A stretch of 63,670 nucleotides of DNA, counting the filler, from Sphaeroforma arctica JP610 (Eukaryota), in the NCBI RefSeq assembly GCF_001186125.1. It is 7 parts of 3 records of this genome, joined end to end, with 100 filler letters (N's around TTAATTAATTAA, not from the genome) between each part and the next. Parts side by side here need not be neighbours in the genome. Positions count along the whole stretch, not along the records: positions 28,577 to 47,077 come from NW_014040555.1; 6 more parts are not named here. One strand, written 5' to 3'. A model generated the notes under the pieces. It ran no database searches and had not been told where the DNA came from. It was given only the letters and a program-made list of their open reading frames with translations. The translations under genes and the position numbers were made by a program. This document shows, in pieces, positions 26,918-63,495 of this stretch (position 1 is its first letter; every line of letters starts with the position of its first letter).

Positions 26918-27070
26918 AGGTGCCGAAGCACCGTATCAAACGAATTCAGACGCACACAAAGACATTTGTCGATGTGTAAAAGGGATCGTAAGCCTCAGTG
27001 CGAATGGCGAACACCTCCCTTCTAAACCTTGGACTGCATGAGCTCCAAGGAATCCGCCCAGGTATGTACT
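26918..27070 (-). ncRNA. U1 snRNA variant, second copy (5' AGUACAUACCUG)
   Basis: The reverse complement of 26935-27074 is identical to 7012-7151. It then carries SL4 GGUGC-UUCG-GCACC (26919-26932), as in the canonical copy. Confidence 0.88.
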
Positions 27071-27091
27071 AGATACAAAGACATGTTGTCA

Positions 27092-27130
27092 GTATTTATA
27101 TGAGAATAATCCGGTTCGCAAATGTGGGTT
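27092..27130 (-). promoter_or_regulatory. snRNA promoter on the minus strand: AACCCACA (-60) plus CATATAAATAC (-32)
   Basis: Plus-strand GTATTTATATG at 27092-27102 and TGTGGGTT at 27123-27130. Confidence 0.8.
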
Positions 27131-28576
27131 TGTGTCAACTGTCAGTCGCCAACATACAAGTCAAGACAAAGGGTGAAGGCCAGTGACTCGGTGAGTGAGC
27201 AGTGAGCACTGACAGTCTGACACACGCGCTAAAACACAGTCTAAAATAGAAAAACATTTAGAAATAGAAAAACATTTAAAAATAGAATTATGAGTAGCAG
27301 TCTAAAAATAGAAAGTTTGGACTTTTCTTATATAGAAACTATAAATTAGCGTTTTCTTCATGAGTGACGAGTCTATGCCGGCTGCCGCTATGGTTTATAT
27401 ATATATTTTTTGAAAGAGTTCTAGGAGTCTTGATCGTGTAAATACATCGAAAATATGAGACATGGCAACTAGCATCCTCTTCTGGAGGCTACAGTTAATG
27501 TCAGATGTCATGATTATGTACAGTTAAATATATCTTTTGGTTGGCTGTAGTGGCATCCCATCAACGAGTGTTTACCGTTTACTTAGTCGTTGCAAAGCTT
27601 CGTGTATTTACCAAGTAGCCGCCTTGAATCAGCTATCCAATCGCCTCCAAATCACTACACTTAGCGCATCACGAAATTGTCCGTATTCGATTTTTAATTA
27701 TGTAGCTCCGGGATTAAGATATTTTGAGCGTTGATGTAGCTGAACACTGAAAGTACCACGTTGGTAGTGAGTAATCAGCGAAACAATTATTTAATATCCT
27801 CCAAAACGCCACACTCTGAGCGCATCACGAAACTGTTCTCTATTTAATCTCAGTTAGATTAAAGAAGATCCACTGGGATTGAGGAATTTTATTTATGTAA
27901 TTATCATAGTTTTCTAAATCAAACAACGACTCTGTAATTATAGATAAACAAACTTCATTATATTTATCAACTGTGTAAAAAAAGACATTTGGGTCCTCTG
28001 TAGATTCAATAAAAACGTGTATATTCGAGTTTGTAATTCATATCGTGACTCAGCTTCCATTAGGATTACTGGTGGCTTGAATATCCTCAAATAAGTACTC
28101 CAGTCTCTTGTACTAGCCTTGCTGTTAATACCGCTCGCTATAGGGTATCCTCGAGAAGTGAACGATAAAATACAAAAGAAAAATTCAATACATATCTACT
28201 CGGGGTGAAGGATCGTGTACTTCTCGTTCGCTATGTGCGTATGTCATACTTTACTGTTCACGACTCTGCTGTGCTCCAAACGAAAATTTACAAATTAAAA
28301 CATTCATACACACATATTTACGTACATAAATACAGAAATATACACCCGCATACACATATTTCCATACATAAATACGAATATATACACCCGCATACACATG
28401 CACGCGCACACACCACACATACACACACACACACAAAGCATACGTATTACGCACATAGACGCAAACCTATACACACNNNNNNNNNNNNNNNNNNNNNNNN
28501 NNNNNNNNNNNNNNNNNNNNTTAATTAATTAANNNNNNNNNNNNNNNNNNNNNNNNNNNNNNNNNNNNNNNNNNNN

Positions 28577-31214
28577 TAGCGGACTTAACCTGGGCTGAAT
28601 TTTACTCGAGAGCGAATCAGACGTTTACCAAACGCCTTAGTTCCGTGGTGAAAGTCACTAATGCTCAGAGGAAGGTAGGCGGCAATCTTACCGGGGGATC
28701 AGGCAATGGTCGAGACTCTCAGTACACTAATGGAGGTCAGAAGGTAAACAAAGGGGGTGACAAGGGTGGCAATAAGAACAAAATACAAATGGTTCTGAAA
28801 GCCACAAGAACAATGTCATCCCTAAGGGTAACCAGACCAACAGAAATGGACCGCCGGCAGGCAACCCTAAGCCCAGGCATAGGGAGGTCAAGAATTGTAT
28901 TGAGACTGATTGCAATTGGCGAATGACCCAGTATGAGCCGAATGGCAGATGGAATGGAAGGCACGCAGAAAAGTGTAAGCACTTTATCGAGAAGTGTGCC
29001 GACTGTACCGGGACTGGAGGTTACCACAAGCATGGATGTACAGTGAAACCAAAAGTTGAAGTTAAGTGACAAACATACCGGGTCTTGTCACTAAGACAAA
29101 AGGACGCACCTCAAGACGAGCGTGTAATCCTAGATATACGAGTTAACGGACATGAAATAAAAGCGTTGCTGGATCCGGGCTCGCAAATTTCATGTATATC
29201 CTCTAGATTCTGTAAAATGGCAGACGTAACTCGTAAGTCAGAGCCGACTATGTTGGAACTGGCTGATGAAAGAGAGATCACTTGCAGAGAAATGGCAATC
29301 GATCTTAGGTTTACATTGACAGACTAACGTACTACAGTTACTAAGGCAGTCATATGTAACACTTCACCAGACTATTATCTCATAGGTATGAGTGATTTAT
29401 TGTCATTAGGTATCACAATTACAGGCTTACCTACTAACATTGAACCACAGAAGGATCAGTCGGACGACAACTTGTTGAAACCGGTATAGAAACCTTCGAA
29501 AACTGTGAAGGAGATTATCCCTCACTTCACAGAGAAACTCAAGGACTTGATTTTCGAGAACGACAAGATTCAGATCACTGACTGGGCTTAAGTTCAAAAT
29601 CAATAACGGATACGTTAGTCTAGACCTGACAAGAGTAGATTTCTCGAAGCTGAAGTGTCCTACACGTAACTATGTTGCATGGCGTCATGAGCAGGTCGTA
29701 CGAGAACAGGTGAAAGCATGGTTAGATGACGTAGTGATCGCAGTCAACTACGAGCCGACTCCCGTCAACCTAGCGCTTTTAGCCGTCGACCAATTCAACT
29801 CTGACGGGACGCTGAAGAAAGTTCGGGTGTGTTTGGATATGAGCCCAATTAGCGCTTTGATACCGACAAATGATTGATGGGAAACCAAGATATGTACAGT
29901 TCTTTAGCAGGGCTATGAATTCGTCTCAGATCAATTACCCAACCATGCAACAAGAGCTTTTGGCTATTGTTACTGGACTCACTCATTTTAAGGACTATCT
30001 ATATGGCACGCACTTTAACGTGCTATGTGATCAGAAGTCATTGCAACACCTAAAAGACATGAAACCTAACTCACAGTTAGTCAGTCGGTGGCATGACACG
30101 ATCGCGAAATGTTCTTTCGATATAACACATATAGCGGGTATTCACAATCACTTACCCGACATGTTGTCTCGCTTCGTACCAGGCTTTAACACGATGGTTA
30201 GGGAGTTACTAGCTATAGATTGGATGACCAACCTTAGGTGGTTTAAGATCGCTGACAACATATATGGACCACGTACCATAGATATGTTTGCCGCTCATCA
30301 TAATGCGCAACTGCCGAGGTACCGGACACTGGAACATCCGGAAGGAGATGGATTCCAGATAGACTTGTCTCACGAGAATGATTGGGCAAATCCACCATGG
30401 CTATTAACACCACGGTTGCTAAATTGTGTACATATTCAAGATGCTACCAGCACGGTGCGTTGTCCCCTAAGACACTCAGATAAATGGCTACCACAATTGA
30501 TCTCAATGATACAATGTGAGCCGATCTATGTGGATAGAGAGGTAGATACTTTTCTTTACCAGGGTACCCGTGCAGTCCAAAAGTCGCCTTGGCGACATAC
30601 TATTACATGTCGAATAGGTCCAGTTGGAACAACCAAGTGGACACCATCCGATACTTTCAAACACGAAGGTTGAGGAATCCAAGATTCCACTCTTGAATCC
30701 CAAGTCTCAATCAGAGACTGGGACAACACGAGCACCTGCAGTATGTGTTACCGAGATACAGCCAAATTCAAAGGAATCAAAATAGAGCGCAACACTAGCG
30801 AAAGCCTTCTACAACAAGATACGGTCTGACAGGGAAACTGCATACCAAGCAGAAACTCGATTGCTTAAGCAATTGATGAATGACTTTCCCGAGGTATATG
30901 ATCATGTGACTCAACTAATGGATATATCAAATTTTAGTCGGATTCACGATGTAGAAGCTTTAAGCGAGATTGTACAAGACGAGTCTTCGAGTCCAGGTGA
31001 TGACGCGGTGGAATCCTCACCTCCTGATTTCAATGTAACAAGTAGATCACAGGAGGCAATTCTGAAGTGGTTAAGACAAAATCATGCTCTTAAGCACATG
31101 GATAAGGTTAGAACTGAGAAAGATTGCAAAAGGTACGGAATCGTACACCCGAACCTCAAGCAATATATATCTCAGGTGTATCACGAATGTAACAACTGCG
31201 AAGTTAACCGGATC
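28577..31214 (+). mobile_element. Decayed Ty3/Gypsy-type LTR retrotransposon internal region: gag C-terminus, protease, RT (mostly deleted), RNase H, adenine methyltransferase, integrase Zn finger
   Basis: Two CCHC-like knuckles at 28896-29039; protease ALLDPGSQIS (~29165); RT start KKVRVCLDMSPI joined directly to RNase H FFSRAMN...NYPT..QELLAIV..LTHF (ORF 29870-30673); MTase DMFA (30281) and NPPW (30389-30400); HHCC motif NHALKHM...ECNNC (~31080-31200). Contains stops and frameshifts. Confidence 0.9.
30212..30620 (+). other. Dam-like DNA N6-adenine methyltransferase domain within pol
   Basis: DW...F......YGP.TIDMFAAHHNAQLPRY.......DGFQIDL......WANPPW...RLL.......T...P.....W.PQL matches the phage-Dam/DIRS MT pattern: SAM-binding DxFA followed by catalytic NPPW. 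Confidence 0.85.
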
Positions 31215-31665
31215 CAAGAGCTATTAGCCATAGTGGCAGCTCTAACACACTTCCGAGACTACTTATACGGAACAGCATTTACGCTGATGTATGATCAGAA
31301 ATCTCTTCAATATATGAAAGAGATGAACCCCGACTCTCAATTACTGAGTCGCTGGCATGATACAATATCAAAGTTTCATTTTGATATAAAACATCTGCCA
31401 GGTATACATAACCATTTACCGGATATGTTATCACGCTTCGTACCGGACTTTAATAAATCCGTACGTGAGTTACTAGCCACTGACTGGAAGTGTAATCCCA
31501 GGTGGTTTGAACTGGCTCAAAAGATATATGGGCCACATACCATAGATATGTTTGCTGCACATCATAATGCACAACTATCGAATTAAAGGACTTTAAATCA
31601 TCCTATGGGAGACGCCTTTCATATAGACCTCTCCCAACATAATACGTGGGCTAATCCACCATGGT
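31215..31665 (+). mobile_element. Second, divergent RNase H plus adenine methyltransferase fragment of the same Gypsy family
   Basis: QELLAIVAALTHFRDYLYG...NHLPDMLSR...DWKCNPRWF...YGPHTIDMFAAHHNAQL..*..DAFHIDLSQHNTWANPPW, then runs into an N gap. Confidence 0.88.
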
Positions 31666-32227
31666 NNNNNNNNNNNNNNNNNNNNNNNNNNNNNNNNNNN
31701 NNNNNNNNNNNNNNNNNNNNNNNNNNNNNNNNNNNNNNNNNNNNNNNNNNNNNNNNNNNNNNNNNNNNNNNNNNNNNNNNNNNNNNNNNNNNNNNNNNNN
31801 NNNNNNNNNNNNNNNNNNNNNNNNNNNNNNNNNNNNNNNNNNNNNNNNNNNNNNNNNNNNNNNNNNNNNNNNNNNNNNNNNNNNNNNNNNNNNNNNNNNN
31901 NNNNNNNNNNNNNNNNNNNNNNNNNNNNNNNNNNNNNNNNNNNNNNNNNNNNNNNNNNNNNNNNNNNNNNNNNNNNNNNNNNNNNNNNNNNNNNNNNNNN
32001 NNNNNNNNNNNNNNNNNNNNNNNNNNNNNNNNNNNNNNNNNNNNNNNNNNNNNNNNNNNNNNNNNNNNNNNNNNNNNNNNNNNNNNNNNNNNNNNNNNNN
32101 NNNNNNNNNNNNNNNNNNNNNNNNNNNNNNNNNNNNNNNNNNNNNNNNNNNNNNNNNNNNNNNNNNNNNNNNNNNNNNNNNNNNNNNNNNNNNNNNNNNN
32201 NNNNNNNNNNNNNNNNNNNNNNNNNNN

Positions 32228-35200
32228 NTGTTTAACAGTTGGATAATTCAACTGTGAAGCATTCATTGCTCGACTAAAGAATTGTATATATCTAGGTTTG
32301 TTATCTATAACCTGATATAATACTCCTCCTAAGGCTAAGTCTGATGCGTCCGTTGCTATTTCAAACGGCACGCCATCGACTGGCCCTTGTACAACTGGGG
32401 CTTGTTGGACTGCGTGTTTGAGCGCTTTAAATACGTCATCACACTCTTTAGTCCACAAGTCTCCTAGTTTGCCTTTATGACATCTTAAGTGTCCAAAAGG
32501 TTTAAGGTAGTCAGCTAAGTGTGGTACTTCATCTGAAAATAAGTTTACAAACCCACACATGCTGTTAACATCTCTTCCTGTAGTTGGTGTTCGCCAATCT
32601 AATAGGGTTTCCACCTTACGGGGGTCGATTTTAACACCTTCCCCAGATATACGGTAGCCTAAGAGCTGTATTTCGCTCATAGCGAAGTGACATTTCTTCT
32701 CGTTAATCTTGAAGTTTTGTTCGTTGAGTCTCTTAAGAACTCGTCTGACTAATGCGACATGTTCGCCCTTAGGTTAAGAAAAGATGACTATGTCATTTAT
32801 ATAGACTTGCACGTTGGGCATGTCTGCAAACATTTCCTCCATTACTTGTTGGAATAATGCTGGTAAAGAGTGTAACCCGAAAGGTGCACCTCTGAACCTG
32901 TATTGTTTACCTTTCCACTTAAAACTAAAGTATTTACGATGTGGTTCATATATCTACATTTGATGGTATCCTTGTGTAAGGTCTACAGTTGTAAATACTG
33001 TAGCACCTTCCATCCTTCGCAGTAGCTCGTTAATACGAGGTAGGTGAAAGCTATGAGTCGGTAATAATTTATTTATCGGACTCATATCTAAACATACTCT
33101 AACTTTCTTAATCGATCCGTCAGAGTTATGTTGGTCTACAGCTAGCAGTGCCAAGTTAACTGACGTCTGTTGATAGTTAATTTCTAACACTCCATCTGCT
33201 AGCCATTTCTCAACTTGTTCTTCTACCACAGCCTCGTGTCTCCAGGATACATAGTTCCTTGAGGGACACTTCAACTGTGTAAAGTCCAACTTGGTTAAAT
33301 CAAGGCTGACATATTCGTCGTTAAAACGGAATTTTGCCCAATCTGTGATATCTATCTTCTTATTAACTAGAATCAGATCTATGGTTTTGTTCGTATAGTC
33401 AGGTGTTAATGCCTTGACTGTGTCTGACGGAGGCTTATATGGATTCAGACAGTTATCGTCTGATCGATCCTTTAATGGATCTATGTTAGTTGGTAAACCA
33501 GTTACGGTTATACCTAGAGTGAGTAAATCGATCATTCCGACTATAATGTCGTACTTCTGTGACATATTAACTATCACAGCTTGAGTAGTGATACTCCTAT
33601 CATCGGCCAGAGAGATTTTAACATCTGTGGCCATGGTATCACACTTAGAAGTTTTGTCTTCTGCTAATATTAGGTGAGTAGTTTGAGTTCGCCTTTCAAT
33701 GTCTTTCATTAATGCAAAGCGATCGTAATACACGAAATTTCTGAACCAGGATCAATCAACGCAAGGATTTTATTTACATTGGAATATACAGGGATTATTA
33801 CACGCTCATCTAAAGAGTCGTTGTATTGTCTGTGTAATGATTGTACCTGGTAGTACCGTCACTCCAACTAAATGTTGGGCTTTCGGTCACAAGACTTAGT
33901 GTGATAACCATTGGTCTTCTCACACTTGTCACACTTAATAAGAAAGTGTGTACAGGTGGGTGCATGCCTGCCATTCCAATAACCGTTAGGGGTCAATTGG
34001 TACATGTCATACCCACACTTTGCGTCGGCACATTTCTTAATCTGCTTAAATGGAGGTTCCTTATCCTTCGCCTCCGCGCGTGAACGTTTATAAGGTCGCG
34101 TGGATAGAGTGGAGTCTGTTGGGGTCTCTCGTTTGAGGTCTGCCTGAATACGTACCCGTGATCGGTTTGCTCCCGCGGTTTCTTAACAGCCGCTTATGTC
34201 TTCGATGTTACTCGGTGCACGGGGGAAAGGGTGGATACAGTATCATAAAACTGTTCCCACGTAAGTCGGGATAAATAAAACTTTGTTTCATGTCCCTTGT
34301 CTCGAGCCTCAGTAGCGTATTTACGTCGCAACTCGGTGTACAGGCTCTCACGGTCGTTATTCCCTATGTTCTCACAGAACACGTGCATAACCAGGAACTC
34401 ATACCATCGCTGTGCCTTGTCCTTTGTTATATCTGGACGTTTAAGGTCAGCATCAAGCTTTAGAATATAACTCTGAATCGGAGTATTCTCAACTGTAAAA
34501 TTGAAAGTCCTGGGCTTCGCATGTCCTTACTTAATAAGGACNNNNNNNNNNNNNNNNNNNNNNNNNNNNNNNNNNNNNNNNNNNNNNNNNNNNNNNNNNN
34601 NNNNNNNNNNNNNNNNNNNNNNNNNNNNNNNNNNNNNNNNNNNNNNNNNNNNNNNNNNNNNNNNNNNNNNNNNNNNNNNNNNNNNNNNNNNNNNNNNNNN
34701 NNNNNNNNNNNNNNNNNNNNNNNNNNNNNNNNNNNNNNNNNNNNNNNNNNNNNNNNNNNNNNNNNNNNNNNNNNNNNNNNNNNNNNNNNNNNNNNNNNNN
34801 NNNNNNNNNNNNNNNNNNNNNNNNNNNNNNNNNNNNCATTAAAGCGGAAATCCATTGCTGGGGAGCGATATCATACGTCTCCAGTATGACCGTAAACGCA
34901 TTAAGCGTACGGGTTAGCATGTCAAGGTCATGGTTGTTTATAAACTCGACCTGCTTACTGTTGGCATCCCAGTTCGACTTAAGTCGACCGATCTGTCCCT
35001 TGTACTTCTGGTTATCCCTGTGGTCTTGTCCACGTTGGGCCTGAAGTAGCTGAATCGATGCGCTTGTGCTTAATCGCGATCATATTAGCAAAATATGATA
35101 CATCACAGGATGTTTCAGGTCAGCGTCTAACTTCAGAATATAACTCTGAATGGGCGTGTTCTCGGCTGGTTCATTTAAAATTGAACTCAGCCCAGGGCTA

Positions 35201-36640
35201 CGCAAATCCTTACTTAACAAGGATGTGACCAACCAACACACAGCTGGCCAGTCACGACAAGTGTCTAGCTCATGCTGGTGTCGCTGCAGGATCAGATAAC
35301 TGGTACCTGCATTGCTGGGGAGCGATATCATTCGTCTCCAGCATGACCGTAAACGCATTAAGCGTACAAGTTAGCGTGTCGATGTCATGGTTGTTTATAA
35401 ACTCGACCTGCTTGCTGTTGGCATCCCAGTTCGACTTAAGTCGACTGATCTGTCCCTTGTACTTCTGGTTGTCCCTGTGGTCTTGTCCACGTTGGGCCTG
35501 AAGTAATTGGTCTATGCGCATTTGCTTAATTGCAATAATATTCGCATAGTATGCTACGTCATTAGCATGATGCGCAGCATGGGCGACTTCCATTTTATTG
35601 GTATAGTCGTCGACCAATTTATTAAGGTCGTTCACCTCGTCAGAGTGGAAATCCTCTGCGGATGGTGTAAAGCCGTGCGGTCGAAGCGATTAAACTCGAC
35701 ATCGTTCACACGTCTGCGGGGATGATTAATATCCCTTGGCGTCGGAATAACATACCTGGTCTTAACTGGTTTCCGACGATTGTCTTCCCAATTGGGTACC
35801 TCGGTCTATAATACCTTTGAGGACAGGTAACTCACGACCAGGTGTCAGAACAGGCGAATGATTAGCCTGTTCTTCTGGCAGTAATGCCTCGTACGGTATA
35901 TCGACGCTGTGCACCTCTGGATCATATGATTTAGGTGTCGAGCTTGAGTCTTTGGGCGTAATTGCCTGTCGACGTTCTGTCCACTTCTGTAGGGCTTCAG
36001 TAATGCCCGGGGAAACATGCTCGCGAAAGCGCTGTGTATGATTTCCTGATCTTTCTAATTGATCTACATGCTTAACAGTCAAGTCCTTCATAATAATAGC
36101 TAACTGATTCTTAAGATCAGCGTATATAGTAATTAACTTACTTATGTGCTTCGGCTTAGAAGTCTCGGACGTAGATTCGGTTTTTCTACTTGAGCTTGCC
36201 TCCTCTTCTGGTTCCATAATAGGTTCCTTCTGAGATCTGTCCTTGTCCCCTATATTTGGGGACGCCCTCATAACTGGGGACTTTCCTTTTTGATTTTCGT
36301 CAGAAGAATGGTCTGGGGCGTCTTGAGATGTATCCCTTGTATCACTTCTTGGCTTCGTTAATGCAAGCTTTGAAGTCGAGGCAATAGTTGGCCCTCGGGC
36401 TCTGTCAGAATGAGTAGCCTCCTTAAGCGGAGTGGTTACTTACTTATCTGAAGCATTGCCCTTTTGACTATAATTGTCAGAAGCAAGTACTTTGGCTACC
36501 GTGCGCTTAAATGCATCAGCAGCGGCGTCGGTTGCTTGTGCAGCAGTAATAGCTGCGGCAGCGCTAGCGACTTCTCTCTCTATCTTCTTCTTTTCAGCTC
36601 TACGCTTCTTAGAAGGAGTATTTTCTTTCTTGGTCATAAT
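32228..36640 (-). mobile_element. Decayed Ty3/Gypsy-type element, same family, opposite strand: gag, protease, RT, RNase H N-terminus
   Basis: Gag-like ORF pieces at 34194-36637; knuckles at 33889-34032; protease LALIDPGSEIS (~33740-33770); RT KKVRVCLDMSPIN, TTVDLTQGYHQ, GAPFGL and YINDIVIF (mutated YIDD); RNase H FEIATDASDLALGGVLYQ...FFSRAMN...NYPT. The leader/LTR probably lies at ~36640-37800, but its edges could not be fixed. Confidence 0.92.
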
Positions 36641-37404
36641 CTTAACTTATGACTACTAGCTTGCCTCATAACGACTAGCTTAAACAAGAGAAAAAAATGT
36701 TGTGGTAGTTAACTTACCTTTACGCTTAAGTAGTCTAAGTAATTAATACTTTTGCTAACTTTAAAATGTGTAAGATTCGGTCTAATAAAGGCGATACTAA
36801 TGCCTTAGAATAAATAAACGCGTAGGTAAATTCTATATATCGTGTAAATATCGATATAAATAAACGAAATGAGACGTTTAATAAAGTTATGTTTGCCTCG
36901 TGAAAACAGCAATACTCTGAAGGATTGTGAGGCTGAGACATTGCCAATATATAATCCTCTCAGTACTGTTTCCGCCGAAAGGATTTAATTTAGTGTTTCG
37001 TTGTCGCTCTATTCTGGGGCGAATCCGATAGACTCATAAAATCCTATCTTTAGAAAAAATAAATAAAAATAAAAATACTCTTGACGTCTTTAGTTATTGT
37101 CTTAACCAATAACTTGCCACTATCAAGAATTACCGACTTAGCCCTCATCAGACTGGCACATCTGGCTGGCTTATCAGAGGATCAACTAGGTAACGTTAAT
37201 AGTCCCTAGAAATCTATATTCGGTTGAGCCATCTCGCTACCGAAGTATTCAGATATAAATAAAATTGGAAAGTAAATAAAGCTCTATTATTAGAACGAGA
37301 CCAACTCTTTTATGTTTGGTATTTTACTGAGGCCTCTTAATGGCCTCATCCAAATATCTGATATGTTAAATGGAAAAGGTTTAATTAATAAAACCATTGA
37401 AAAC

Positions 37405-41085: not shown

Positions 41086-42684
41086 NNNNNNNNNNNNNNN
41101 NNNNNNNNNNNNNNNNNNNNNNNNNNNNNNNNNNNNNNNNNNNNNNNNNNNNNNNNNNNNNNNNNNNNNNNNNNNNNNNNNNNNNNNNNNNNNNNNNNNN
41201 NNNNNNNNNNNNNNNNNNNNNNNNNNNNNNNNNNNNNNNNNNNNNNNNNNNNNNNNNNNNNNNNNNNNNNNNNNNNNNNNNNNNNNNNNNNNNNNNNNNN
41301 NNNNNNNNNNNNNNNNNNNNNNNNNNNNNNNNNNNNNNNNNNNNNNNNNNNNNNNNNNNNNNNNNNNNNNNNNNNNNNNNNNNNNNNNNNNNNNNNNNNN
41401 NNNNNNNNNNNNNNNNNNNNNNNNNNNNNNNNNNNNNNNNNNNNNNNNNNNNNNNNNNNNNNNNNNNNNNNNNNNNNNNNNNNNNNNNNNNNNNNNNNNN
41501 NNNNNNNNNNNNNNNNNNNNNNNNNNNNNNNNNNNNNNNNNNNNNNNNNNNNNNNNNNNNNNNNNNNNNNNNNNNNNNNNNNNNNNNNNNNNNNNNNNNN
41601 NNNNNNNNNNNNNNNNNNNNNNNNNNNNNNNNNNNNNNNNNNNNNNNNNNNNNNNNNNNNNNNNNNNNNNNNNNNNNNNNNNNNNNNNNNNNNNNNNNNN
41701 NNNNNNNNNNNNNNNNNNTCATATTGCAGCAGCACAGATCAAAGCAGCACTTCACTTTGTAAAAAATTCGCTATGTAAACGAGGCATTAAGGTATATTGC
41801 TAAACTATTTACCTCCTATATTCCATGATAAACAGGCGGTCTCTGGCTTCACAAAAAATATCATAGGTGGTCTAACTAGTTCGAATTTCTGTTTGAACGA
41901 GAATGTGGAACAAGGTGATGAGAGAAGTGGATTGTGCGATAAGGAAGCTGCTTTTATTTCTGAGATCATGGCACAGAAAGGTATTTATTAACAGACAACA
42001 ATAGTTTGCACGACTGAATGTTATCAACTGCTTTAGTTGTATTGCTTTTCATCACTAGTGGTCAAGTACTTGGCTGCGTTCGTATGATAGCATATATACA
42101 GTGGCGAAGTTGGAACTTCCAACTTTTACGTGTACGTTCTGCTGCGCGTGCTCTAGCACCCTGTAATGGTGGTTTATACGGTCGAAATACCACAACCACA
42201 TATATACAAATATATTCAATTAGAATCGTTCAACTGGAAACTTTACCTTAATCAATTTGTACTTTCACATATAGATTTTAAATTGTTTTTGAATGTGCCA
42301 AGTTATACCCTAGTGCCGTTGATTTCATTACTGGAAGTACCTAATCTGATCTCTTTCCCCGATCACAACCTATTCCGATATTCAGGCATTAGTTTTGACG
42401 AAGCTCGCTTCGAATTGACAAAGCGACGGATGAGAGAAAATGGTATCGACCCTGAAACGGGACTACCGCTGGACGAACGTGCTGTACACAGCTTGAGCGA
42501 CCATTCGTTCGATAATCTTCACAAACACACAATAAGTTCCAATACTGTTGACAAATCCGAAGACGAGGTTTCGATAAAAACGAATAGGCGAGGAAGCAAT
42601 ACCGGCTCGATGTACAGAAAAGCTACCAAAAATTGGACTTCCTGGTGGTCTGCCACTCCGGTTTCTCACGATGGCCTGGCCTAG
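39511..42684 (+). CDS. Protein with a long Ser/acidic low-complexity N-terminus and a C-terminal DUF2015 (UPF0357/YCL012C-like) domain
   Basis: Exons 39511-40920, 41836-41980 and 42386-42684 are phase-consistent; an extra exon could hide in the N gap. GLTSSNFCLNEN...DERSGL...ISEIM..KGISFDEARF...RENGIDPETGLPLD resembles the DUF2015 consensus, recognised by eye. Confidence 0.8.
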
Positions 42685-43561: not shown

Positions 43562-44158
43562 TCACTCGCCTCCTGGGGGAACCTCATCATTGTCGAAGTC
43601 CAATCGTTCGCTCAACTCTGATCGAAATCGTGTTCGGCATATCTGCCCGTTTTCAATGAATTTGCAGTAAGGCACATTCCGGCACATGGATCGGAATGGA
43701 TATGTATCACACAACTCATTCACCTCCTCGTTAAGAACGTCAGGCTGACATCCTTGCAAGTTACCATCGGAACCAAACCACTTACAGTAGTAAGTGCCCC
43801 CGAAGGACTCTCCGTACATTTCCGGTGTCTCGCATAATTCCTGGTCGTCGTACTGTTGACAAATACGCTCCCACTGATCCGCGGCTAAAGCTACAGCGGC
43901 GTCGGGAATACAACTGTACCCTGTCCATGAACACTGTATATCATCGTCGCACCACTGCCTAGAACCGTAATCCTTGCATCCGGACTGTTGGATAACATCC
44001 AAGACGCTGGGACTCAGTTCCGTCAATGGGCCCACACTTTGTCGGCGTTCTCGGATTCTTAACATCACCTCTTCTTTAGTATGGGTAGAGATACCATTCA
44101 CAGCTGTGAATAGCATAACAGTCATTGTAAGAGCCGAGGCTAATTTTGAAACACTCAT
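43562..44158 (-). CDS. Intronless secreted cysteine-repeat protein (198 aa), function unknown
   Basis: ATG at 44158; signal peptide MSVSKLASALTMTVMLFTAVNG; basic RERR site; three four-Cys modules. Confidence 0.8.
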   Translation of the reverse strand: MSVSKLASALTMTVMLFTAVNGISTHTKEEVMLRIRERRQSVGPLTELSPSVLDVIQQSGCKDYGSRQWCDDDIQCSWTGYSCIPDAAVALAADQWERICQQYDDQELCETPEMYGESFGGTYYCKWFGSDGNLQGCQPDVLNEEVNELCDTYPFRSMCRNVPYCKFIENGQICRTRFRSELSERLDFDNDEVPPGGE

Positions 44159-45857
44159 ATTTCTAACTTCTATTTTTCCAATTTGTACGTCGATGATAAA
44201 GCTATGAATGTGATTGTAACTTTTATACAAACTTTTCTGCTATTTTTTTGTGCTTCGTATTTAAAGGTAGCGTATGATCTGTAGTCTGTACCCAATGTAT
44301 GTATTGTGTGATCTGAACGAATTTGTTATGAGAAAGCAACTATATACTCGAAACAAAATCACAAATTTTGATGACCATAAATTCACCGTACAGAATGGGA
44401 AGGTTGCTTTGCTTCAACTTGATACAACCGCTTATCAGTCATCTGTGATCTGGCATATCACATTTGACGGTTGGTCAACCAAGGATGTTCAAGTAAAAAG
44501 AAAAAGGCATTTTAGAATAGTAAAGCAACACGATTGAATAAAATTTTAGATGTAAATATTTACACTTCATGTGTTTATAGCGTATTTACATTTTACACCT
44601 GTAGTCATTTTACACGCGCAAATACTCGATATTTTACTTTACATTTTATTTATCTCATTTTTACTCAATAGAATTGACCCAGATCCCCCAGTCGGCTGTC
44701 TGGCAGTCAGACGGCCCACTGGCCCAGAGACTCTCTCTAAAGTAGAGAGAGAGACTGAGAGTGGCAGACACGGGCGACGGGCCCAGATTTATTTAATTAA
44801 ATATCAGCCTTCTGAATTAAAACAAAAACAAAAACGGCGATCTGTAAAAAAAATAGCCTTCTTCTGAAAAAAAACAACTATTTATTCTCACGACAGAAGC
44901 TCAGGCCGACAGAAGCTCAGGCCGACAGCCGCTCAGGCCTCAGGTCCAGGAGGCACCGACCCACAGACCACAGTCACCGTGCAGCGAGCGCAAGGCTCAG
45001 ACCTGTCACCTGAGCCCTGAGCCCTCAGGCCTCAGCTGGGTTGGTAAACGACGCCGACATTTGTGCAAACGACATGTCATAAATGTCGCGGCGACATTCT
45101 TTCAGGGGTGTCTGTGTCGCTGTCGTATCAACCCAGGGCCTCAGGTCTCCGGCTGAGTGGCTGAGTGGCTGAGGAGTGAGGACTCTCAGCCAGCAAGGTA
45201 TGTAGTGAGGGCAGAGTGCCAGAGCCTCAGGGACAGCCTGTGACTCACTCGCTGTGACAGGGCTCAGACGTCAGAGCTCTCATATATATTAAAAAAAACA
45301 TACGTCTCATAATACACATATAAGTAAAAAAAAGGCTATGCACATTCAGTTTATTGGTGATAAAAATATAAAAAACGATAGCACAAGTCATAGCCCTCTA
45401 AATTGAACAAACAAGTACCTATTTTAGTGTTTCTAGAATAGTCAGAGGTTTAAAAAGCAAACACACACAGCTACTTATTCCCCTTCAAAAAAACAAGGTT
45501 CTGTACGTGTACACACATACACACTCATACATTCATATACACACACAAACACACAGGAAAAGACATACACACACATACACANNNNNNNNNNNNNNNNNNN
45601 NNNNNNNNNNNNNNNNNNNNNNNNNNNNNNNNNNNNNNNNNNNNNNNNNNNNNNNNNNNNNNNNNNNNNNNNNNNNNNNNNNNNNNNNNNNNNNNNNNNN
45701 NNNNNNNNNNNNNNNNNNNNNNNNNNNNNNNNNNNNNNNNNNNNNNNNNNNNNNNNNNNNNNNNNNNNNNNNNNNNNNNNNNNNNNNACACACACACACA
45801 CACACACACACAACAACGCACACACAACACACACATTACACACACACAACAACACAC

Positions 45858-50229: not shown

Positions 50230-52549
50230 AAAGCTGTTCCCCTGCCGCCTGTATCGCCTCCGGGTTTGCAATCTGGCAGCGACGATTTTATTTCTCCCAA
50301 GGGTATGTACAATCGGATTAGTTGTGCTCTATTGTTTAGTTTCTAGGTTCGTGATTTGATGAATTCATGTAGTAGACGCTATCAACTATGCAAAAGGCTA
50401 CCTATAAAGGACGCACTGCGCATGTCTAGCATTCTCAATGTAAGTGTCTAGCAACTTGCTAGCTGACAGTTTGTATCAGTTTAAATTTTACTGACGTATA
50501 TGGTTTTAGCGGCGGGTAGTACATGCAAGCCTAAACAAGTAGCATGTGTACCAGCGTAGAATAAACTTGATTAATTTGATTCTCTATCCGTCGACAGTCA
50601 GTTCATATTATCTCGTTTATTTTTCTTTGTAGCCCTGCTGGAAAGTGAGGGGGAATTCATGGCCCCGGAAGAACTGGCTGAGCTCGAGAAATGTCACAAG
50701 GTATGTGTGGACAACGTAAAATGACATGTACTTCTCGCCTGTGTGTGTTGCGCAGCGCCGCCACGAGGAGGTATATAGATGATAGTAAAACTAAGTATGC
50801 TTAAAAGCATCAGGATCCGAGCAAGGATACGGCGTTATAGCGCTGTCAAGCAGATACACTATCCTGTGACCTTTTCGCTCGAGTAAGAATCAGCCTTTGC
50901 ATTGGCTACACTTTATATGAATATAACATAAACTGACATATTCGATCATTCACAAATGTACATGATTTGCGCATGCTAATATGAATGCGAAACATGCTAT
51001 TCTGATCCAGGTGTACTACTATGGCCAATTTGCGCGGTGTGGTTCCAAAATATTCGATCCACCGCTGTTCCCAAATTCAAGAACGGGTATATTTCCGTTT
51101 CGAATGTTTGCGCATATGAACTTCCGATATGAGATCATCTCAGGCCTGGGCGAGGGATCGTTTGGCCATGTAAGTGAAACATGTACTACCTCGTTAAGAC
51201 ACCTCTGTGTATTTACGCACACAAAAGCACGCGGCGTTTGCTTTACCATGGTGCAATAAAGGATACTACTTCGAACATGCATCTATACCGCTGCACCACT
51301 TTCAAAAACGTCGGGAAAATGGTTCTAGTCATCACCGTGTGCACACATTAGAAATACGAGGCGAATTTGCCGGTAGAGGAGCACACCGCACATGCGCACC
51401 ATCTCTTGATTCTGACGCGTACAATCATACTCATACACTTCACAACATCCAGGTGGTCAAGGCATACGATCACAAGACCAAGACCTTTTGTGCGGTCAAA
51501 ATAGTACGGAGTGATCCCACCATCCTCGCACAAGCCGAGGAAGAGCGGAAGATTCTCCGACACCTCAACAAAGTGTCGCAGAAGCACCACAATGTGGTGC
51601 AGTTGCTGGACTCGTTCCAGTTCTACGGTCACCTGTGCTTTGTCTTTGAGCTGCAGGGCGATAGTCTTTACGATGTGCTTAAGAAACGGAACTTCAAAGG
51701 CCTTAGTCTGACGGCTGTGCGTCGGTAAGTGTGGTAGTATTGATGTGTACACAAATTAGTAACAGGTACTGGATATGGTAGAGAGTCTGGATGCTTGTGT
51801 GGAATTGGTGCATATTTCGTTTTCTAGTTGTCTTAGAAAATAGTGATGTGAAACAGGGCCTTATCCCAGCTCTACTCTACGGCGATAGTCTGTACGATTT
51901 GTTAGAGAAACGCCACTTCAGTCGGACAGTAGTTGTACCGTAAATGTGGTGGTGTATTTGTGTGGTTGTGAACGTTTTGAAAGCTATCTTTTTTTGCAGT
52001 CTCCGGCGAAGTAAAGTCATTAACACGTTATAAGTAAGGTGCTAACACGTTATCGATAACACAATAGAAGTAAGATGCTAGCACGTAATCGATGATGCAT
52101 GCTCTGTTGAGTGAGTGTCGAGTCACACAAAGCAGATATTTGCAGTGTCTCGCCCATTTTCTTTCTTATATGCGATATGGGCGATAGCGCTGTTGGCATT
52201 TATGCGGAGCCGTTTAGACTCGCTATAAAGCATCACCCATCTTTGCTGACATACTACACCCGTGTCACACGCCCCCCGTCTCCATCTACCTACAGCATCG
52301 CGCACGATGTGCTCAAGTGTCTGCTGCTACTGTCCCAAGAAAATATAGTACACACTGACCTCAAGCCAGAGAACATTCTGATCAACAACCACACACGGAA
52401 TAAGAACCAGCTATTGGATTGTTCGCTGGCTACGCTGCGCACAATGACGCGCTTTGATGTGGCGTCTCCCCTGCCAGCGATCACGTCGCAGGAAGTGTAC
52501 AATGCTACGGTGATTGATTTCGGCTGTAGTGACTTTGTGGGCAAGACAG
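50230..52549 (+). CDS. CMGC protein kinase, class II DYRK-like; partial (subdomains I-VII)
   Basis: Phase-consistent exons 50230-50302, 50633-50700, 51011-51169, 51453-51724 and 52296-52549. They encode VYYYG, RYEIISGLGEGSFGHVVKAYDHK, AVKIV, HLCFVFEL, FKGLSL..VRR, HTDLKPENIL and IDFGCS. The start and C-terminal exons were not found. Confidence 0.9.
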
Positions 52550-52931
52550 GTATGTATTCGAGTATGTAGAAAACGCATGCCTGTGTATGTGCGTGTGTGT
52601 GCACTGTCGGGGACCAGCGCATGTGTGTGCAGGACGAGAACTTGCGAGTATATGGTGATGGTGAATAAACAAGATAGCGTTGTTGGGTAGTCTAAGATAG
52701 TGAGTGTAATTTGTTATGCGGCTATCAAAGCCAGCTCGTCCCTTGACACTCTTGTTCAAATAATGAAAACAATAATAATGATAATGATAGTAATGATAGT
52801 AATTATAGTAATAATAACAATAGTATATCATNNNNNNNNNNNNNNNNNNNNNNNNNNNNNNNNNNNNNNNNNNNNTTAATTAATTAANNNNNNNNNNNNN
52901 NNNNNNNNNNNNNNNNNNNNNNNNNNNNNNN

Positions 52932-61947: not shown

Positions 61948-63495
61948 ATGAAGCCCTTCTACCAGCCCACGCTGGCAGAAGGGGTGCGTGCGCTACGGAC
62001 TTGGATAGGTATAAGGTGGTACTTCAATCCGAAGTGCTCTGATCTGGGCAGGATAGTAGCGAGAGAATCAGGAGGGATAAGGCGACTGCACCGTTGGTGT
62101 GCCTTTATGCTCCTGATGATCGATGGTTCAAAGAGATGGTTCCGCTTCCCTCGACTGATCCGATGGTCATATACCCGAAGGAAGGTGTCGTCCTAAGTCA
62201 TGGGTAGGATTCTATGCCGGCGCCCAATTTCGTGACCTTAGTATGCCACATGAGTCCCTACAGACCGCACGTAAGCTGCGTAAGACTTTTGGGGGAAGTT
62301 GGAAGCCGAATGACCCCACTTTGAGAAGTTAGCTGCGGCGGCAGGGGCTCTCCTGCGCGCCTAGTGATGGATGCGGACAAGAAGTTCCAGAACAGAGACG
62401 TGGCGACATTATGTGAACGCCGTAACATTGAGCCGCATTGGATCACAGTGGATCGTCATCAGAGTAATGGGCGCCAGAGACACTCCTCATGACGATGAAG
62501 GATTGGCTTCGCAGAGAGATCGAGGCAGCGGATAATTCTCCGCATGCGTGGCTCCACTTGGTATATGAGATGGAGTGCATTTACAACGCCACGCGCAACT
62601 CAGTCACGGGGTTCTCGCCATATTTCTACATGATAGGCAGGGACTTCAACGGTCAGAAGCGCTTAGAGCTGCAGGACAGATTACTGTCCTTGCTGGAGTC
62701 TGAGAAGGGTACGGAAGCCATGGTCCGTGACGCTGTAGCGGCTGTTCATGATCGACGAGCTCAGCTGGAACAACAGAGCCGCGCCAATATCAGACGCGAG
62801 GACGTACCATTGTTGCCGGTCGGTTCTCAGGTTTGATATCAGCTGCGTGGCAAGTCGCATGATTTGTCTGCACGGTGGGGTGGTCCGGCCAAGGTGGTGT
62901 CAGTACAGGCACCACTTACGCACGTGGTAGAAATGGCCGACGGTACACACTCATGTGGGACACAGCTCTCGAGAAAAGCGAATGCTCGGACTACGGTCAG
63001 GTACAGGCAGGCCGACTGGTCCCTTCGAGGATTGGTTGCTATATCATTCACCGTTTTGTGACTCCAAGGATGGTTACTAGCAAGCGATTGGTTATTGCCT
63101 GAGGCGTGCAAAGAAGGCACGCATATGGTCCACCGCTATGAGCTCGGTCTGGGGTCGGCGGCAAATGTGGTGTGATGAAGCGGATTTGGAGTGTTACGTA
63201 CCGCTGGTACCTGGATCTGGCACTAAATATGTGCTTCCTACGCAGTATAATGGACTCTTGAAGCGCATGTTCCCGGATAAGGATAAGCAGACACATTTCA
63301 AACAGCAGGTTGAGAAGTGTTTTGCTTTCGTACAGTCGGCGAAGTACCGTGGTGGACGCATTCGAGTGTGGGGTGAGCTACAGTTGTCCGAGAATGGAGT
63401 TGAGCTGCCGGCACGACGTTAGTTCTGGTAGAAAATTATCCAGGATGGAAGTAGAAGGACCGAGCTCCACCTCCCACGAGGGGTTGGGGAGATAG
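61948..63495 (+). mobile_element. Decayed Ty3/Gypsy integrase region (different, GC-richer family) next to a (TA)n tract
   Basis: LVMDADKKFQNRDVATLCERRNIEPHW...HQSNG; W...VYEMECIYNATRNSVTGFSPYFYMIGRD; GPY/F-like RWGGPAKVV. Contains frameshifts and stops. Confidence 0.8.

What the first reader, a model, noticed from the sequence alone, without database searches (positions are those of the whole stretch)
29870..31665. Gypsy-type LTR retrotransposon carrying a Dam-like N6-adenine methyltransferase between RNase H and integrase
Seen: in-frame after RNase H (NHLPDMLSR) lies a domain with TIDMFAAHHNAQL and WANPPW, followed further downstream by an integrase HHCC finger (~31080-31200). The element also has an aspartic protease. 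A second, clearly diverged copy (31215-31665) conserves the same motifs, so the domain was under selection in the family. Known: a Dam-like MT domain after RNase H is typical of DIRS tyrosine-recombinase elements, which lack protease and DDE integrase; NPPW is an intact amino-methyltransferase catalytic motif. Inference: a Gypsy lineage captured an MTase, possibly from DIRS, that could 6mA-mark its cDNA or insertion site, for example to mimic active chromatin or evade host silencing. I cannot establish from here whether this architecture has been reported.
Basis: partly seen in the sequence, partly recalled or inferred. Interest (0 to 1): 0.85.

Follow-up and report, generated by a model that had tools for sequence, protein, structure and literature searches.

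The report
Broken gypsy retrotransposons with adenine methyltransferase
These are broken copies of a gypsy-type jumping gene that carry a predicted adenine-methylating domain between RNase H and integrase; a 2026 preprint already described this design in the likely host group, and the domain is thought, but not shown, to mark new copies so that they stay active.

Summary
Window 28579-36660 holds decayed pieces of one Ty3/Gypsy family. A Dam-like (PF05869-type) domain with DMFA and NPPW motifs follows RNase H in frame. It folds as an N6-adenine methyltransferase and is under purifying selection between copies (pN/pS 0.29). Intact relatives encode protease, RT, RNase H, this domain, HHCC finger and DDE integrase in one ORF. 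RT and methyltransferase trees both place the window with Abeoforma whisleri elements, and the nearest named fragments are from Sphaeroforma arctica. The scan has met DAM-LTRs on other DNA before. The local copies are dead: stops, frameshifts, a roughly 740-nt RT deletion, no integrase core. The substrate is open. Phage Dam models are the best viral fold matches, but the best solved match is the RNA cap methylase PCIF1, which the preprint's text never mentions.

The parts
28579..29069 (+). Copy 1: gag-like C-terminal region with a Cys/His cluster, frameshifted; 5' end lost in the assembly gap
   Evidence: No Pfam hit; 42% identical to the matching region of copy 3; gag inferred from position
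29115..29400 (+). Copy 1: aspartic protease (active-site motif DPG at 29172), stop at 29325-29327
   Evidence: Pfam Asp_protease_2 E 5.5e-6; tblastn with P0002; translation
29590..29868 (+). Copy 1: N-terminal part of reverse transcriptase, ending at a deletion of about 740 nt
   Evidence: 76% identical to P0003 129-223, next block starts at residue 469; contig X5 record 25 has 741 extra letters here
29867..30202 (+). Copy 1: RNase H, lacking its N-terminal part
   Evidence: Pfam RT_RNaseH E 3.6e-20
30203..30658 (+). Copy 1: Dam-like N6-adenine methyltransferase domain, uninterrupted; DMFA at 30281, NPPW at 30389-30400
   Evidence: Pfam Dam E 1.3e-4; model pLDDT 90; fold matches
30666..31082 (+). 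Copy 1: poorly conserved linker after a one-base frameshift, stop at 30783-30785
   Evidence: 68% identical to S. arctica SARC_02119
31083..31214 (+). Copy 1: integrase HHCC zinc finger; copy breaks off just before the integrase core
   Evidence: sister contigs continue into the core at 31214
31215..31665 (+). Copy 2: C-terminal half of RNase H and first 66 codons of the methyltransferase, stop at 31584-31586, ends at a gap
   Evidence: pN/pS against copy 1 0.18 (RNase H) and 0.29 (methyltransferase)
32229..33867 (-). Copy 3: protease, whole RT (catalytic motif reads YIND; two stops) and N-terminal half of RNase H, ending at the gap exactly where copy 2 begins
   Evidence: 64% identical to P0003 1-496; RT trees
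33868..36660 (-). Copy 3: broken gag-like region with a gap (34542-34836) and an internal 253-nt duplication (34853-35105 / 35310-35561, 90%)
   Evidence: no Pfam hit; gag inferred from position

Best explanation
These are dead, rearranged copies of a Ty3/Gypsy retrotransposon family whose polyprotein carries a Dam-like domain between RNase H and integrase, and in active copies that domain likely methylates adenines in the element's own new DNA so that the inserted copy would stay transcribed. Shown here: the domain order, the motifs, the predicted fold, purifying selection, and grouping with Abeoforma DAM-LTRs (identity as an ichthyosporean DAM-LTR: about 0.9). Inferred: as part of Pol the domain enters the particle with RT and integrase, binds SAM through DxFA, and uses NPPW to methylate N6 of adenine on nascent cDNA or the RNA:DNA hybrid. 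After integration, host AMT1 would maintain the mark at ApT, giving promoter-like chromatin. No step of this chemistry has been shown, here or in the preprint. The copies in this window cannot do it themselves.
For: Single-ORF relatives P0002, P0003, P0005 with protease and/or RT, RNase H, Dam and rve; P0002 and P0003 keep YLDD and the integrase D-D-E. Of 29 long or top-ranked proteins scanned out of 149 new profile hits, 9 had RVT_1, RNase H, Dam and rve or H2C2. RT of copy 3 lies in a 13-row DAM-LTR clade (SH-aLRT 99, 119 rows; 9 of 34 rows at 100/99) that holds Abeoforma P0131 and P0133; the methyltransferase lies in the matching 17-row clade (99, 72 rows). Model pLDDT 90; best named viral matches are phage DNA N6-adenine methyltransferases (E 1e-8, TM 0.66-0.75). 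NPP[WFY] in 133 of 165 homologues. pN/pS 0.29, bootstrap 0.17-0.47, 65 codons; between P0002 and P0003 the domain is 68% identical against RT 62%, integrase 57%, linker 31%. Preprint: DAM-LTR insertions in S. arctica and A. whisleri carry more 6mA and are more expressed than other LTRs; 9 of 13 DAM-LTR species have AMT1.
Against: The preprint's dam- E. coli assay showed no 6mA gain. Its 6mA is counted at ApT, AMT1's own target, and 6mA follows transcription, so cause and effect are not separated (my inference). The best solved-structure match is an RNA enzyme, PCIF1. One of the two closest intact relatives, P0002, reads CPPW rather than NPPW. Iyer et al. judged DIRS1-type domains inactive. DIRS elements keep the domain in hosts without AMT1. 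The AU test did not reject holding the window RT with the DIRS-like RTs (p 0.072). Host, LTRs and methylation of these copies were not established.
Confidence: 0.5

Rival explanations
1. The domain is an RNA adenine methyltransferase of the PCIF1 kind: it methylates the element's own genomic RNA (cap-adjacent or internal adenosine) to aid stability, translation or packaging. The 6mA on DAM-LTR DNA would then be a by-product of transcription, laid by AMT1.
For: Best match among solved structures is PCIF1/CAPAM: Foldseek E 1.4e-4, TM 0.63; VIA-align Z 10.2, rmsd 3.3, 136 aligned, against 7.8 for M.TaqI, 7.3 for T4 Dam and 7.1 for E. coli Dam. Iyer et al. place DIRS1-type domains in the PCIF1 clade. 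It would explain the negative DNA assay. The preprint's text has 0 mentions of PCIF1, CAPAM or m6Am.
Against: Predicted phage DNA methyltransferases match better (E 1e-8) than viral PCIF1 proteins (E 3e-4), so PCIF1 may lead the PDB list only because no closer phage-type structure is in it (inference). No sequence-level match to PCIF1 at E up to 10. The PCIF1 chains are about 480 residues and the match covers only their core. A shared fold shows no substrate.
Confidence: 0.2
2. The domain is kept without catalysis, as a nucleic-acid- or SAM-binding module or structural spacer that helps reverse transcription, particle assembly or targeting.
For: Negative E. coli assay; Iyer et al. call DIRS1 copies likely inactive; CPPW in P0002 and in 3 of 165 homologues, no motif match in 29 of 165; earlier scan notes report a conserved but motif-less version in Rozella (not tested here).
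Against: In the 26-row alignment both prolines of NPP, the Asp-x-Phe-Ala motif and flanking aromatics are at least 90% conserved across Gypsy- and DIRS-borne copies; NPP[WFY] in 133 of 165. Such conservation of catalytic motifs is expected of a working enzyme.
Confidence: 0.18
3. The domain methylates the cDNA, but to protect it (from nucleases, deaminases or autointegration) rather than to recruit AMT1.
For: DIRS elements keep the same domain in hosts without 6mA or AMT1, and 4 of 13 DAM-LTR species had no AMT1 found. A similar protective role was proposed for retrotransposon-borne cytosine methyltransferases.
Against: DAM-LTRs, unlike DIRS, co-occur with AMT1 (P 1.5e-4) and their insertions are 6mA-enriched. 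No direct evidence.
Confidence: 0.1
4. The element is a DIRS element, or a DIRS methyltransferase fragment nested in a Gypsy element, or the fusion is an assembly artefact.
For: The region is rearranged and flanked by gaps; the AU test on RT was not significant (p 0.072).
Against: The fusion occurs in two diverged copies and in independent intact ORFs. Contigs of runs X1, X4 and X12 bridge the RNase H-domain boundary. RT scores 178 bits on a Gypsy profile and 105 on a DIRS-like one; Ty3 RT is the best solved hit (E 1e-18). No tyrosine recombinase found.
Confidence: 0.02

Closest known systems
Ichthyosporean DAM-LTR lineage (Pirum gemmata, Abeoforma whisleri, Sphaeroforma arctica); Fernandez-Moreno et al., bioRxiv 10.64898/2026.05.21.726589
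   Same: Ty3/Gypsy RT, DAM domain with NPP motif in Pol, conventional Gypsy organisation; RT and DAM clades include Abeoforma proteins; nearest named fragments are S. arctica SARC_02119 and SARC_08637 (68-74% identity).
   Different: The window's copies are dead fragments. The preprint says the lineage lacks chromodomains, yet relatives including the Abeoforma protein have a degenerate chromo-like tail. I could not compare with the preprint's own sequences, as its supplements were not available.
DIRS1-like tyrosine-recombinase retrotransposons with an MT/DAM domain
   Same: Homologous domain in the same place, directly after RNase H, with DxFA and NPP[WF].
   Different: DIRS have a tyrosine recombinase instead of a DDE integrase (listing) and no protease (recalled); their RTs form a separate clade.
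Phage Dam-type N6-adenine DNA methyltransferases (Pfam PF05869, PHROG 111)
   Same: Best sequence family and best named predicted-structure matches; several are 130-180-residue proteins aligned over most of their length.
   Different: Free-standing phage enzymes at 14-20% identity. T4 and E. coli Dam match less well (Z about 7), so no GATC specificity should be assumed.
PCIF1/CAPAM, cap-specific m6Am RNA methyltransferase
   Same: Best solved-structure match (Z 10.2); same clade according to Iyer et al. (PMC4738411).
   Different: A cellular enzyme of about 480 residues or more with a WW domain; 10-16% identity; no profile match by sequence.
Gypsy and DIRS elements carrying cytosine methyltransferases (de Mendoza et al. 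2018, PMC5890265)
   Same: Retrotransposons that captured a DNA methyltransferase.
   Different: C5-cytosine enzymes in dinoflagellates and charophytes.

Membership tests
Ichthyosporean DAM-LTR lineage | Ty3/Gypsy-type RT | tested here: met
   Copy 3 RT on the Gypsy side of both trees; 178 vs 105 bits; Ty3 best solved hit. The AU test was not significant (p 0.072) but only moves the attachment of the long DIRS branch.
Ichthyosporean DAM-LTR lineage | Eukaryotic DAM domain with NPP catalytic triplet inside Pol | tested here: met
Ichthyosporean DAM-LTR lineage | Conventional Gypsy order with protease and DDE integrase | tested here: met
   Window: protease, RT, RNase H, DAM, HHCC in order. Core present in P0002, P0003, P0005 and in sister contigs, absent from the window.
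Ichthyosporean DAM-LTR lineage | RT and DAM group with elements of Abeoforma, Pirum or Sphaeroforma | tested here: met
   Clades at 99-100 include Abeoforma P0131 and P0133.
Ichthyosporean DAM-LTR lineage | Ichthyosporean host | tested here: inconclusive
   The only named near relatives are S. arctica fragments at 68-74%; no genome held; host genes were not placed taxonomically.
Ichthyosporean DAM-LTR lineage | No chromodomain | tested here: inconclusive
   The 3' end is missing from the window. No Pfam Chromo above cut-off in relatives, but a degenerate chromo-like tail is present (hhalign 97.5%, partly circular).
Ichthyosporean DAM-LTR lineage | Long terminal direct repeats and primer-binding site | tested here: inconclusive
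   None found, but element ends lie in gaps or are deleted.
Ichthyosporean DAM-LTR lineage | Raised 6mA and expression of insertions | not testable with these tools
   Needs modified-base long reads.
DIRS1-like elements | Tyrosine recombinase instead of DDE integrase | tested here: not met
   HHCC finger in the window, rve in relatives; no recombinase hit
DIRS1-like elements | No aspartic protease (recalled) | tested here: not met
   Protease present in copies 1 and 3
DIRS1-like elements | DIRS-type RT | tested here: not met
   My DIRS-like set is labelled by architecture and tree position; no member carried a DIRS name (10 proteins looked up, 7 from this set).
DIRS1-like elements | MT/DAM domain after RNase H | tested here: met
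PCIF1/CAPAM RNA methyltransferases | Shared methyltransferase core fold | tested here: met
   Z 10.2, rmsd 3.3, 136 aligned; Foldseek E 1.4e-4
PCIF1/CAPAM RNA methyltransferases | WW domain | tested here: not met
   No WW hit in the window ORF or in intact relatives; the domain is about 150 residues inside Pol
PCIF1/CAPAM RNA methyltransferases | Activity on capped RNA | not testable with these tools
   Needs an in vitro assay.

The most novel reading that the evidence does not exclude
The 'DAM' domain of DAM-LTR and DIRS retrotransposons is not a DNA enzyme but a PCIF1-like RNA methyltransferase that modifies the element's own genomic RNA: a retroelement that writes its own RNA mark. That would explain the failed E. 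coli DNA assay and the domain's survival in hosts without genomic 6mA. The uninterrupted copy at 30203-30658 and intact relatives make it testable.
Probability: 0.2. Interest if true: 0.65.

Novelty: already known. Interest (0 to 1): 0.2.

Why it matters
As a discovery, little: the architecture, the lineage, the likely host and the proposed mechanism are in a May 2026 preprint, and these copies are dead. It is an independent confirmation. What remains open is the biochemistry: in what I read, no one has shown what this domain methylates. If it marks cDNA, a transposon would be borrowing the host's active-gene mark. If it marks RNA, as the PCIF1 likeness allows, the preprint's model would need revising.

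Tried and rejected
No whole genome is held, so no copy census or LTR search beyond the window. LTR and primer-site searches found nothing convincing. tblastn with three integrase cores and with four C-terminal tails of domain-bearing proteins (one with a Phage_int_SAM_1 hit) found nothing in the window; this is a thin recombinase probe. tblastn with 204 long proteins found no hit outside 28500-36700 (0 of 559 hits). Sequence searches of the PDB with three alignments of the domain gave no methyltransferase. The AU test on RT (16 vs 18 rows) gave p 0.072 and decides nothing; the 119-row tree is the quick version and the 34-row bootstrap had not settled. ApT, CpG and GATC counts in the element show no clear signal (GATC 1.64-fold in copy 1, 1.08 in copy 3). 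Sequencing runs: no RNA holder listed, so no expression evidence. The two local junctions (29868 and 31214/31215) are each spanned by a short identical contig of run X1, but with fewer than 31 letters on a side, and that run may be related to the window's source: not counted as support. The Atlas gave unnamed eukaryotic clusters at 0.93 and one with Dam in 14% of members; it did not answer for a host gene. Synonymous sites are saturated in RNase H and RT, so pN/pS is given rather than dN/dS. Earlier scan notes on this genome: none.
Full report
Setting. The window is a gapped eukaryotic draft assembly, about 40% GC and rich in microsatellites. No whole genome is held.

Observation. ORF 29861-30673 carries RNase H (Pfam E 3.6e-20) and, in the same frame, a domain of about 150 residues with TIDMFAAHHNAQL and WANPPW. 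Alone it matches Pfam Dam PF05869 at E 1.3e-4, below the curated cut-off, and PHROG 111 at E 3.3e-4. The motif pair appears twice in the window and 0 times in 200 shuffles.

Anatomy. Three pieces of one family lie between 28579 and 36660. Copy 1 (+) runs gag-like region, protease (motif DPG), start of RT, RNase H, methyltransferase, linker, HHCC finger. It has stops at 29325, 29487 and 30783 and extra bases near 29588 and 30664. Against intact relative P0003 it jumps from residue 223 to 469, and a sister contig has 741 more letters there: the RT core is deleted. It stops at 31214, where sister contigs go on into the integrase core; no core exists in the window. Copy 2 (+, 31215-31665) is half of RNase H plus 66 codons of the methyltransferase with an internal stop. 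Copy 3 (-) has gag-like region, protease and a full-length RT with two stops and YIND in place of YLDD. It ends at the gap on the codon just before the one with which copy 2 starts, and sister contigs run through that join. Copies 2 and 3 are thus probably one subfamily, split by an inversion or facing each other as an inverted duplication across the gap; I cannot tell which.

The fusion is a family trait. A search with the domain among longer proteins gave 4 hits of 85 candidates. P0002 (1400 aa) and P0005 (1288 aa) are single ORFs with protease, RT, RNase H, Dam and rve; P0003 (1376 aa) has the same without a Pfam protease hit. P0002 and P0003 are 61-63% identical to the window's domain and keep YLDD and the integrase D-D-E. 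A profile search of 1.84 billion representatives gave 7852 hits at E 0.001; of the best 150 I scanned 29 long or top-ranked ones, and 9 had RT, RNase H, Dam and rve or H2C2. P0131 and P0133 are EukProt proteins of Abeoforma whisleri; P0133 aligns with P0003 through RT, RNase H, the domain and integrase. Contigs from runs X1, X4 and X12 bridge the RNase H-domain boundary; these may not be independent of the window's source.

Gypsy, not DIRS. Of 131 sequences with an RT hit, 119 covering at least 75% of the profile went into a tree. Copy 3 falls in a 13-row clade of DAM-bearing elements (SH-aLRT 99) with both Abeoforma proteins, on the side holding named Rhizopus and Cucumis Gypsy-type proteins, apart from 45 short RT-RNase H-DAM proteins (100) (quick tree). 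A 34-row careful tree agrees (clade 100/99, split 100/100), but an AU test forcing the window RT with the DIRS-like rows was not rejected (p 0.072); that constraint only moves the attachment of one long branch. The RT scores 178 bits on a profile of 54 Gypsy RTs without the domain and 105 on the 45 DIRS-like ones; best identities are 42% and about 30%. Ty3 RT is the best solved hit (E 1e-18). My DIRS-like label rests on architecture and tree position, not names. The RT tested is copy 3's; copy 1's remaining RT is 69% identical to it. In a 72-row tree of the domain, copy 1 groups with P0002 and P0003 (100) in a 17-row clade (99) made only of Gypsy-RT or rve-bearing proteins, Abeoforma included; other Gypsy-borne domains sit elsewhere, two beside and one among DIRS-like rows. 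That fits repeated capture, but the tree is unrooted.

Fold and selection. The model (62-row alignment) has pLDDT 90 and pTM 0.86. Best named viral matches are phage DNA N6-adenine methyltransferases (E 1e-8, TM 0.66-0.75); viral PCIF1 proteins follow at E 3e-4. Among solved structures PCIF1/CAPAM leads (Foldseek E 1.4e-4; Z 10.2, rmsd 3.3, 136 aligned, next 8.7; M.TaqI 7.8, T4 Dam 7.3, E. coli Dam 7.1). The preprint treats the domain as lacking parts of T4-type Dam; the near full-length match to 130-180-residue phage proteins suggests to me a compact, complete PF05869-type enzyme (inference). NPP[WFY] occurs in 133 of 165 homologues, CPPW in 3 (P0002 among them), and no match in 29. Between copies 1 and 2, pN/pS is 0.29 (0.17-0.47) for the domain and 0.18 (0.11-0.27) for RNase H; between copies 1 and 3 it is 0.21 for the RT start. 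Decay after insertion inflates these values.

Host. The only two hits of similar length are S. arctica JP610 fragments, SARC_02119 and SARC_08637, 68-74% identical to the window. The host is likely Sphaeroforma or a close relative; this is not confirmed from host genes.

Prior work. A search for retrotransposon + adenine methyltransferase + gypsy + DIRS returned 2 papers. I read the whole main text of bioRxiv 10.64898/2026.05.21.726589; its supplements and figures were not available, which bars a sequence-level match. It reports DAM domains in Ty3/Gypsy elements as new, at least four transfers from DIRS, an ichthyosporean lineage in Pirum, Abeoforma and S. arctica, raised 6mA and expression of these insertions, association with AMT1 (9 of 13 species), a negative assay in dam- E. 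coli, and the model of cDNA marking maintained by AMT1. From PMC4738411 I saw passages: DIRS1 domains belong with PCIF1 and are likely inactive. From PMC5890265, PMC6338049 and PMC12695648 I saw passages; the DIRS papers as listings only. Eight earlier scan notes name the same preprint as closest known, on other DNA; I had found it independently.

Mechanism and verdict. Most likely (0.5) the domain travels in Pol and methylates adenine on the new cDNA or hybrid, seeding AMT1-maintained 6mA and open chromatin; all chemistry is inferred. Rivals: RNA substrate (0.2), no catalysis (0.18), cDNA protection (0.1), DIRS or artefact (0.02). The finding is real and correctly read, already described for this lineage, and the local copies are dead. 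Interest 0.2.

Noticed in passing
P0237 (619-684) and P0250 (656-727), unnamed Logan/JGI records; Copia-type polyproteins (RVT_2, Pol_BBD, SH3_retrovirus, zinc knuckle) carry the same Dam domain above Pfam's cut-off (35 and 42 bits) with NPPW, once before and once after the protease-like barrel; the two are sisters in the domain tree (99). The preprint's text has no mention of copia and a five-term paper search found none. Possibly an undescribed DAM-Copia lineage; host unknown.
   Followed up: partly
P0144 and P0169; Polyproteins with the order endonuclease/exonuclease/phosphatase, Dam, RT, RNase H, H2C2, with a very long RT branch: another placement of the domain.
   Followed up: no
C-termini of P0133, P0142, P0134, P0146, P0137, P0280, P0005, P0002, P0003; The clade holding the window's family, Abeoforma included, ends in a degenerate chromodomain-like tail (hhalign 97.5%; stretches were partly picked with a chromo profile), although the preprint says the ichthyosporean lineage lacks chromodomains.
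   Followed up: partly
window 29172-29180 (+) and copy 3 protease near 33750 (-); P0002: The protease active-site motif reads DPG in both window copies and in intact P0002, instead of DTG (Abeoforma P0133) or DSG (P0005).
   Followed up: no
window 31215-31665 against 28579-31214; Summed contig depth over copy 2 is several times that over copy 1 in all four runs, hinting at a larger subfamily; the tool warns that this is no copy number.
   Followed up: no
window 51198-52569 (+): Exons of a protein kinase (Pfam Pkinase E about 2e-7); looks DYRK-like by recall.
   Followed up: no
window 42157-42684 (+): Match to DUF2015, listed as a fungal family (E 3e-11).
   Followed up: no
window 43562-44239 (-): 225-codon ORF with a signal-peptide-like start and cysteine-rich repeats; no Pfam hit; the Atlas did not answer.
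   Followed up: partly
window 6951-7155 and 26931-27135: A 205-nt dispersed repeat in inverted orientation, 92% alike; probably a small mobile element.
   Followed up: no
window 62468-62836 (+): ORF that reads like the end of an integrase core of another element; no Pfam hit and no tblastn hit with the fetched polyproteins.
   Followed up: partly
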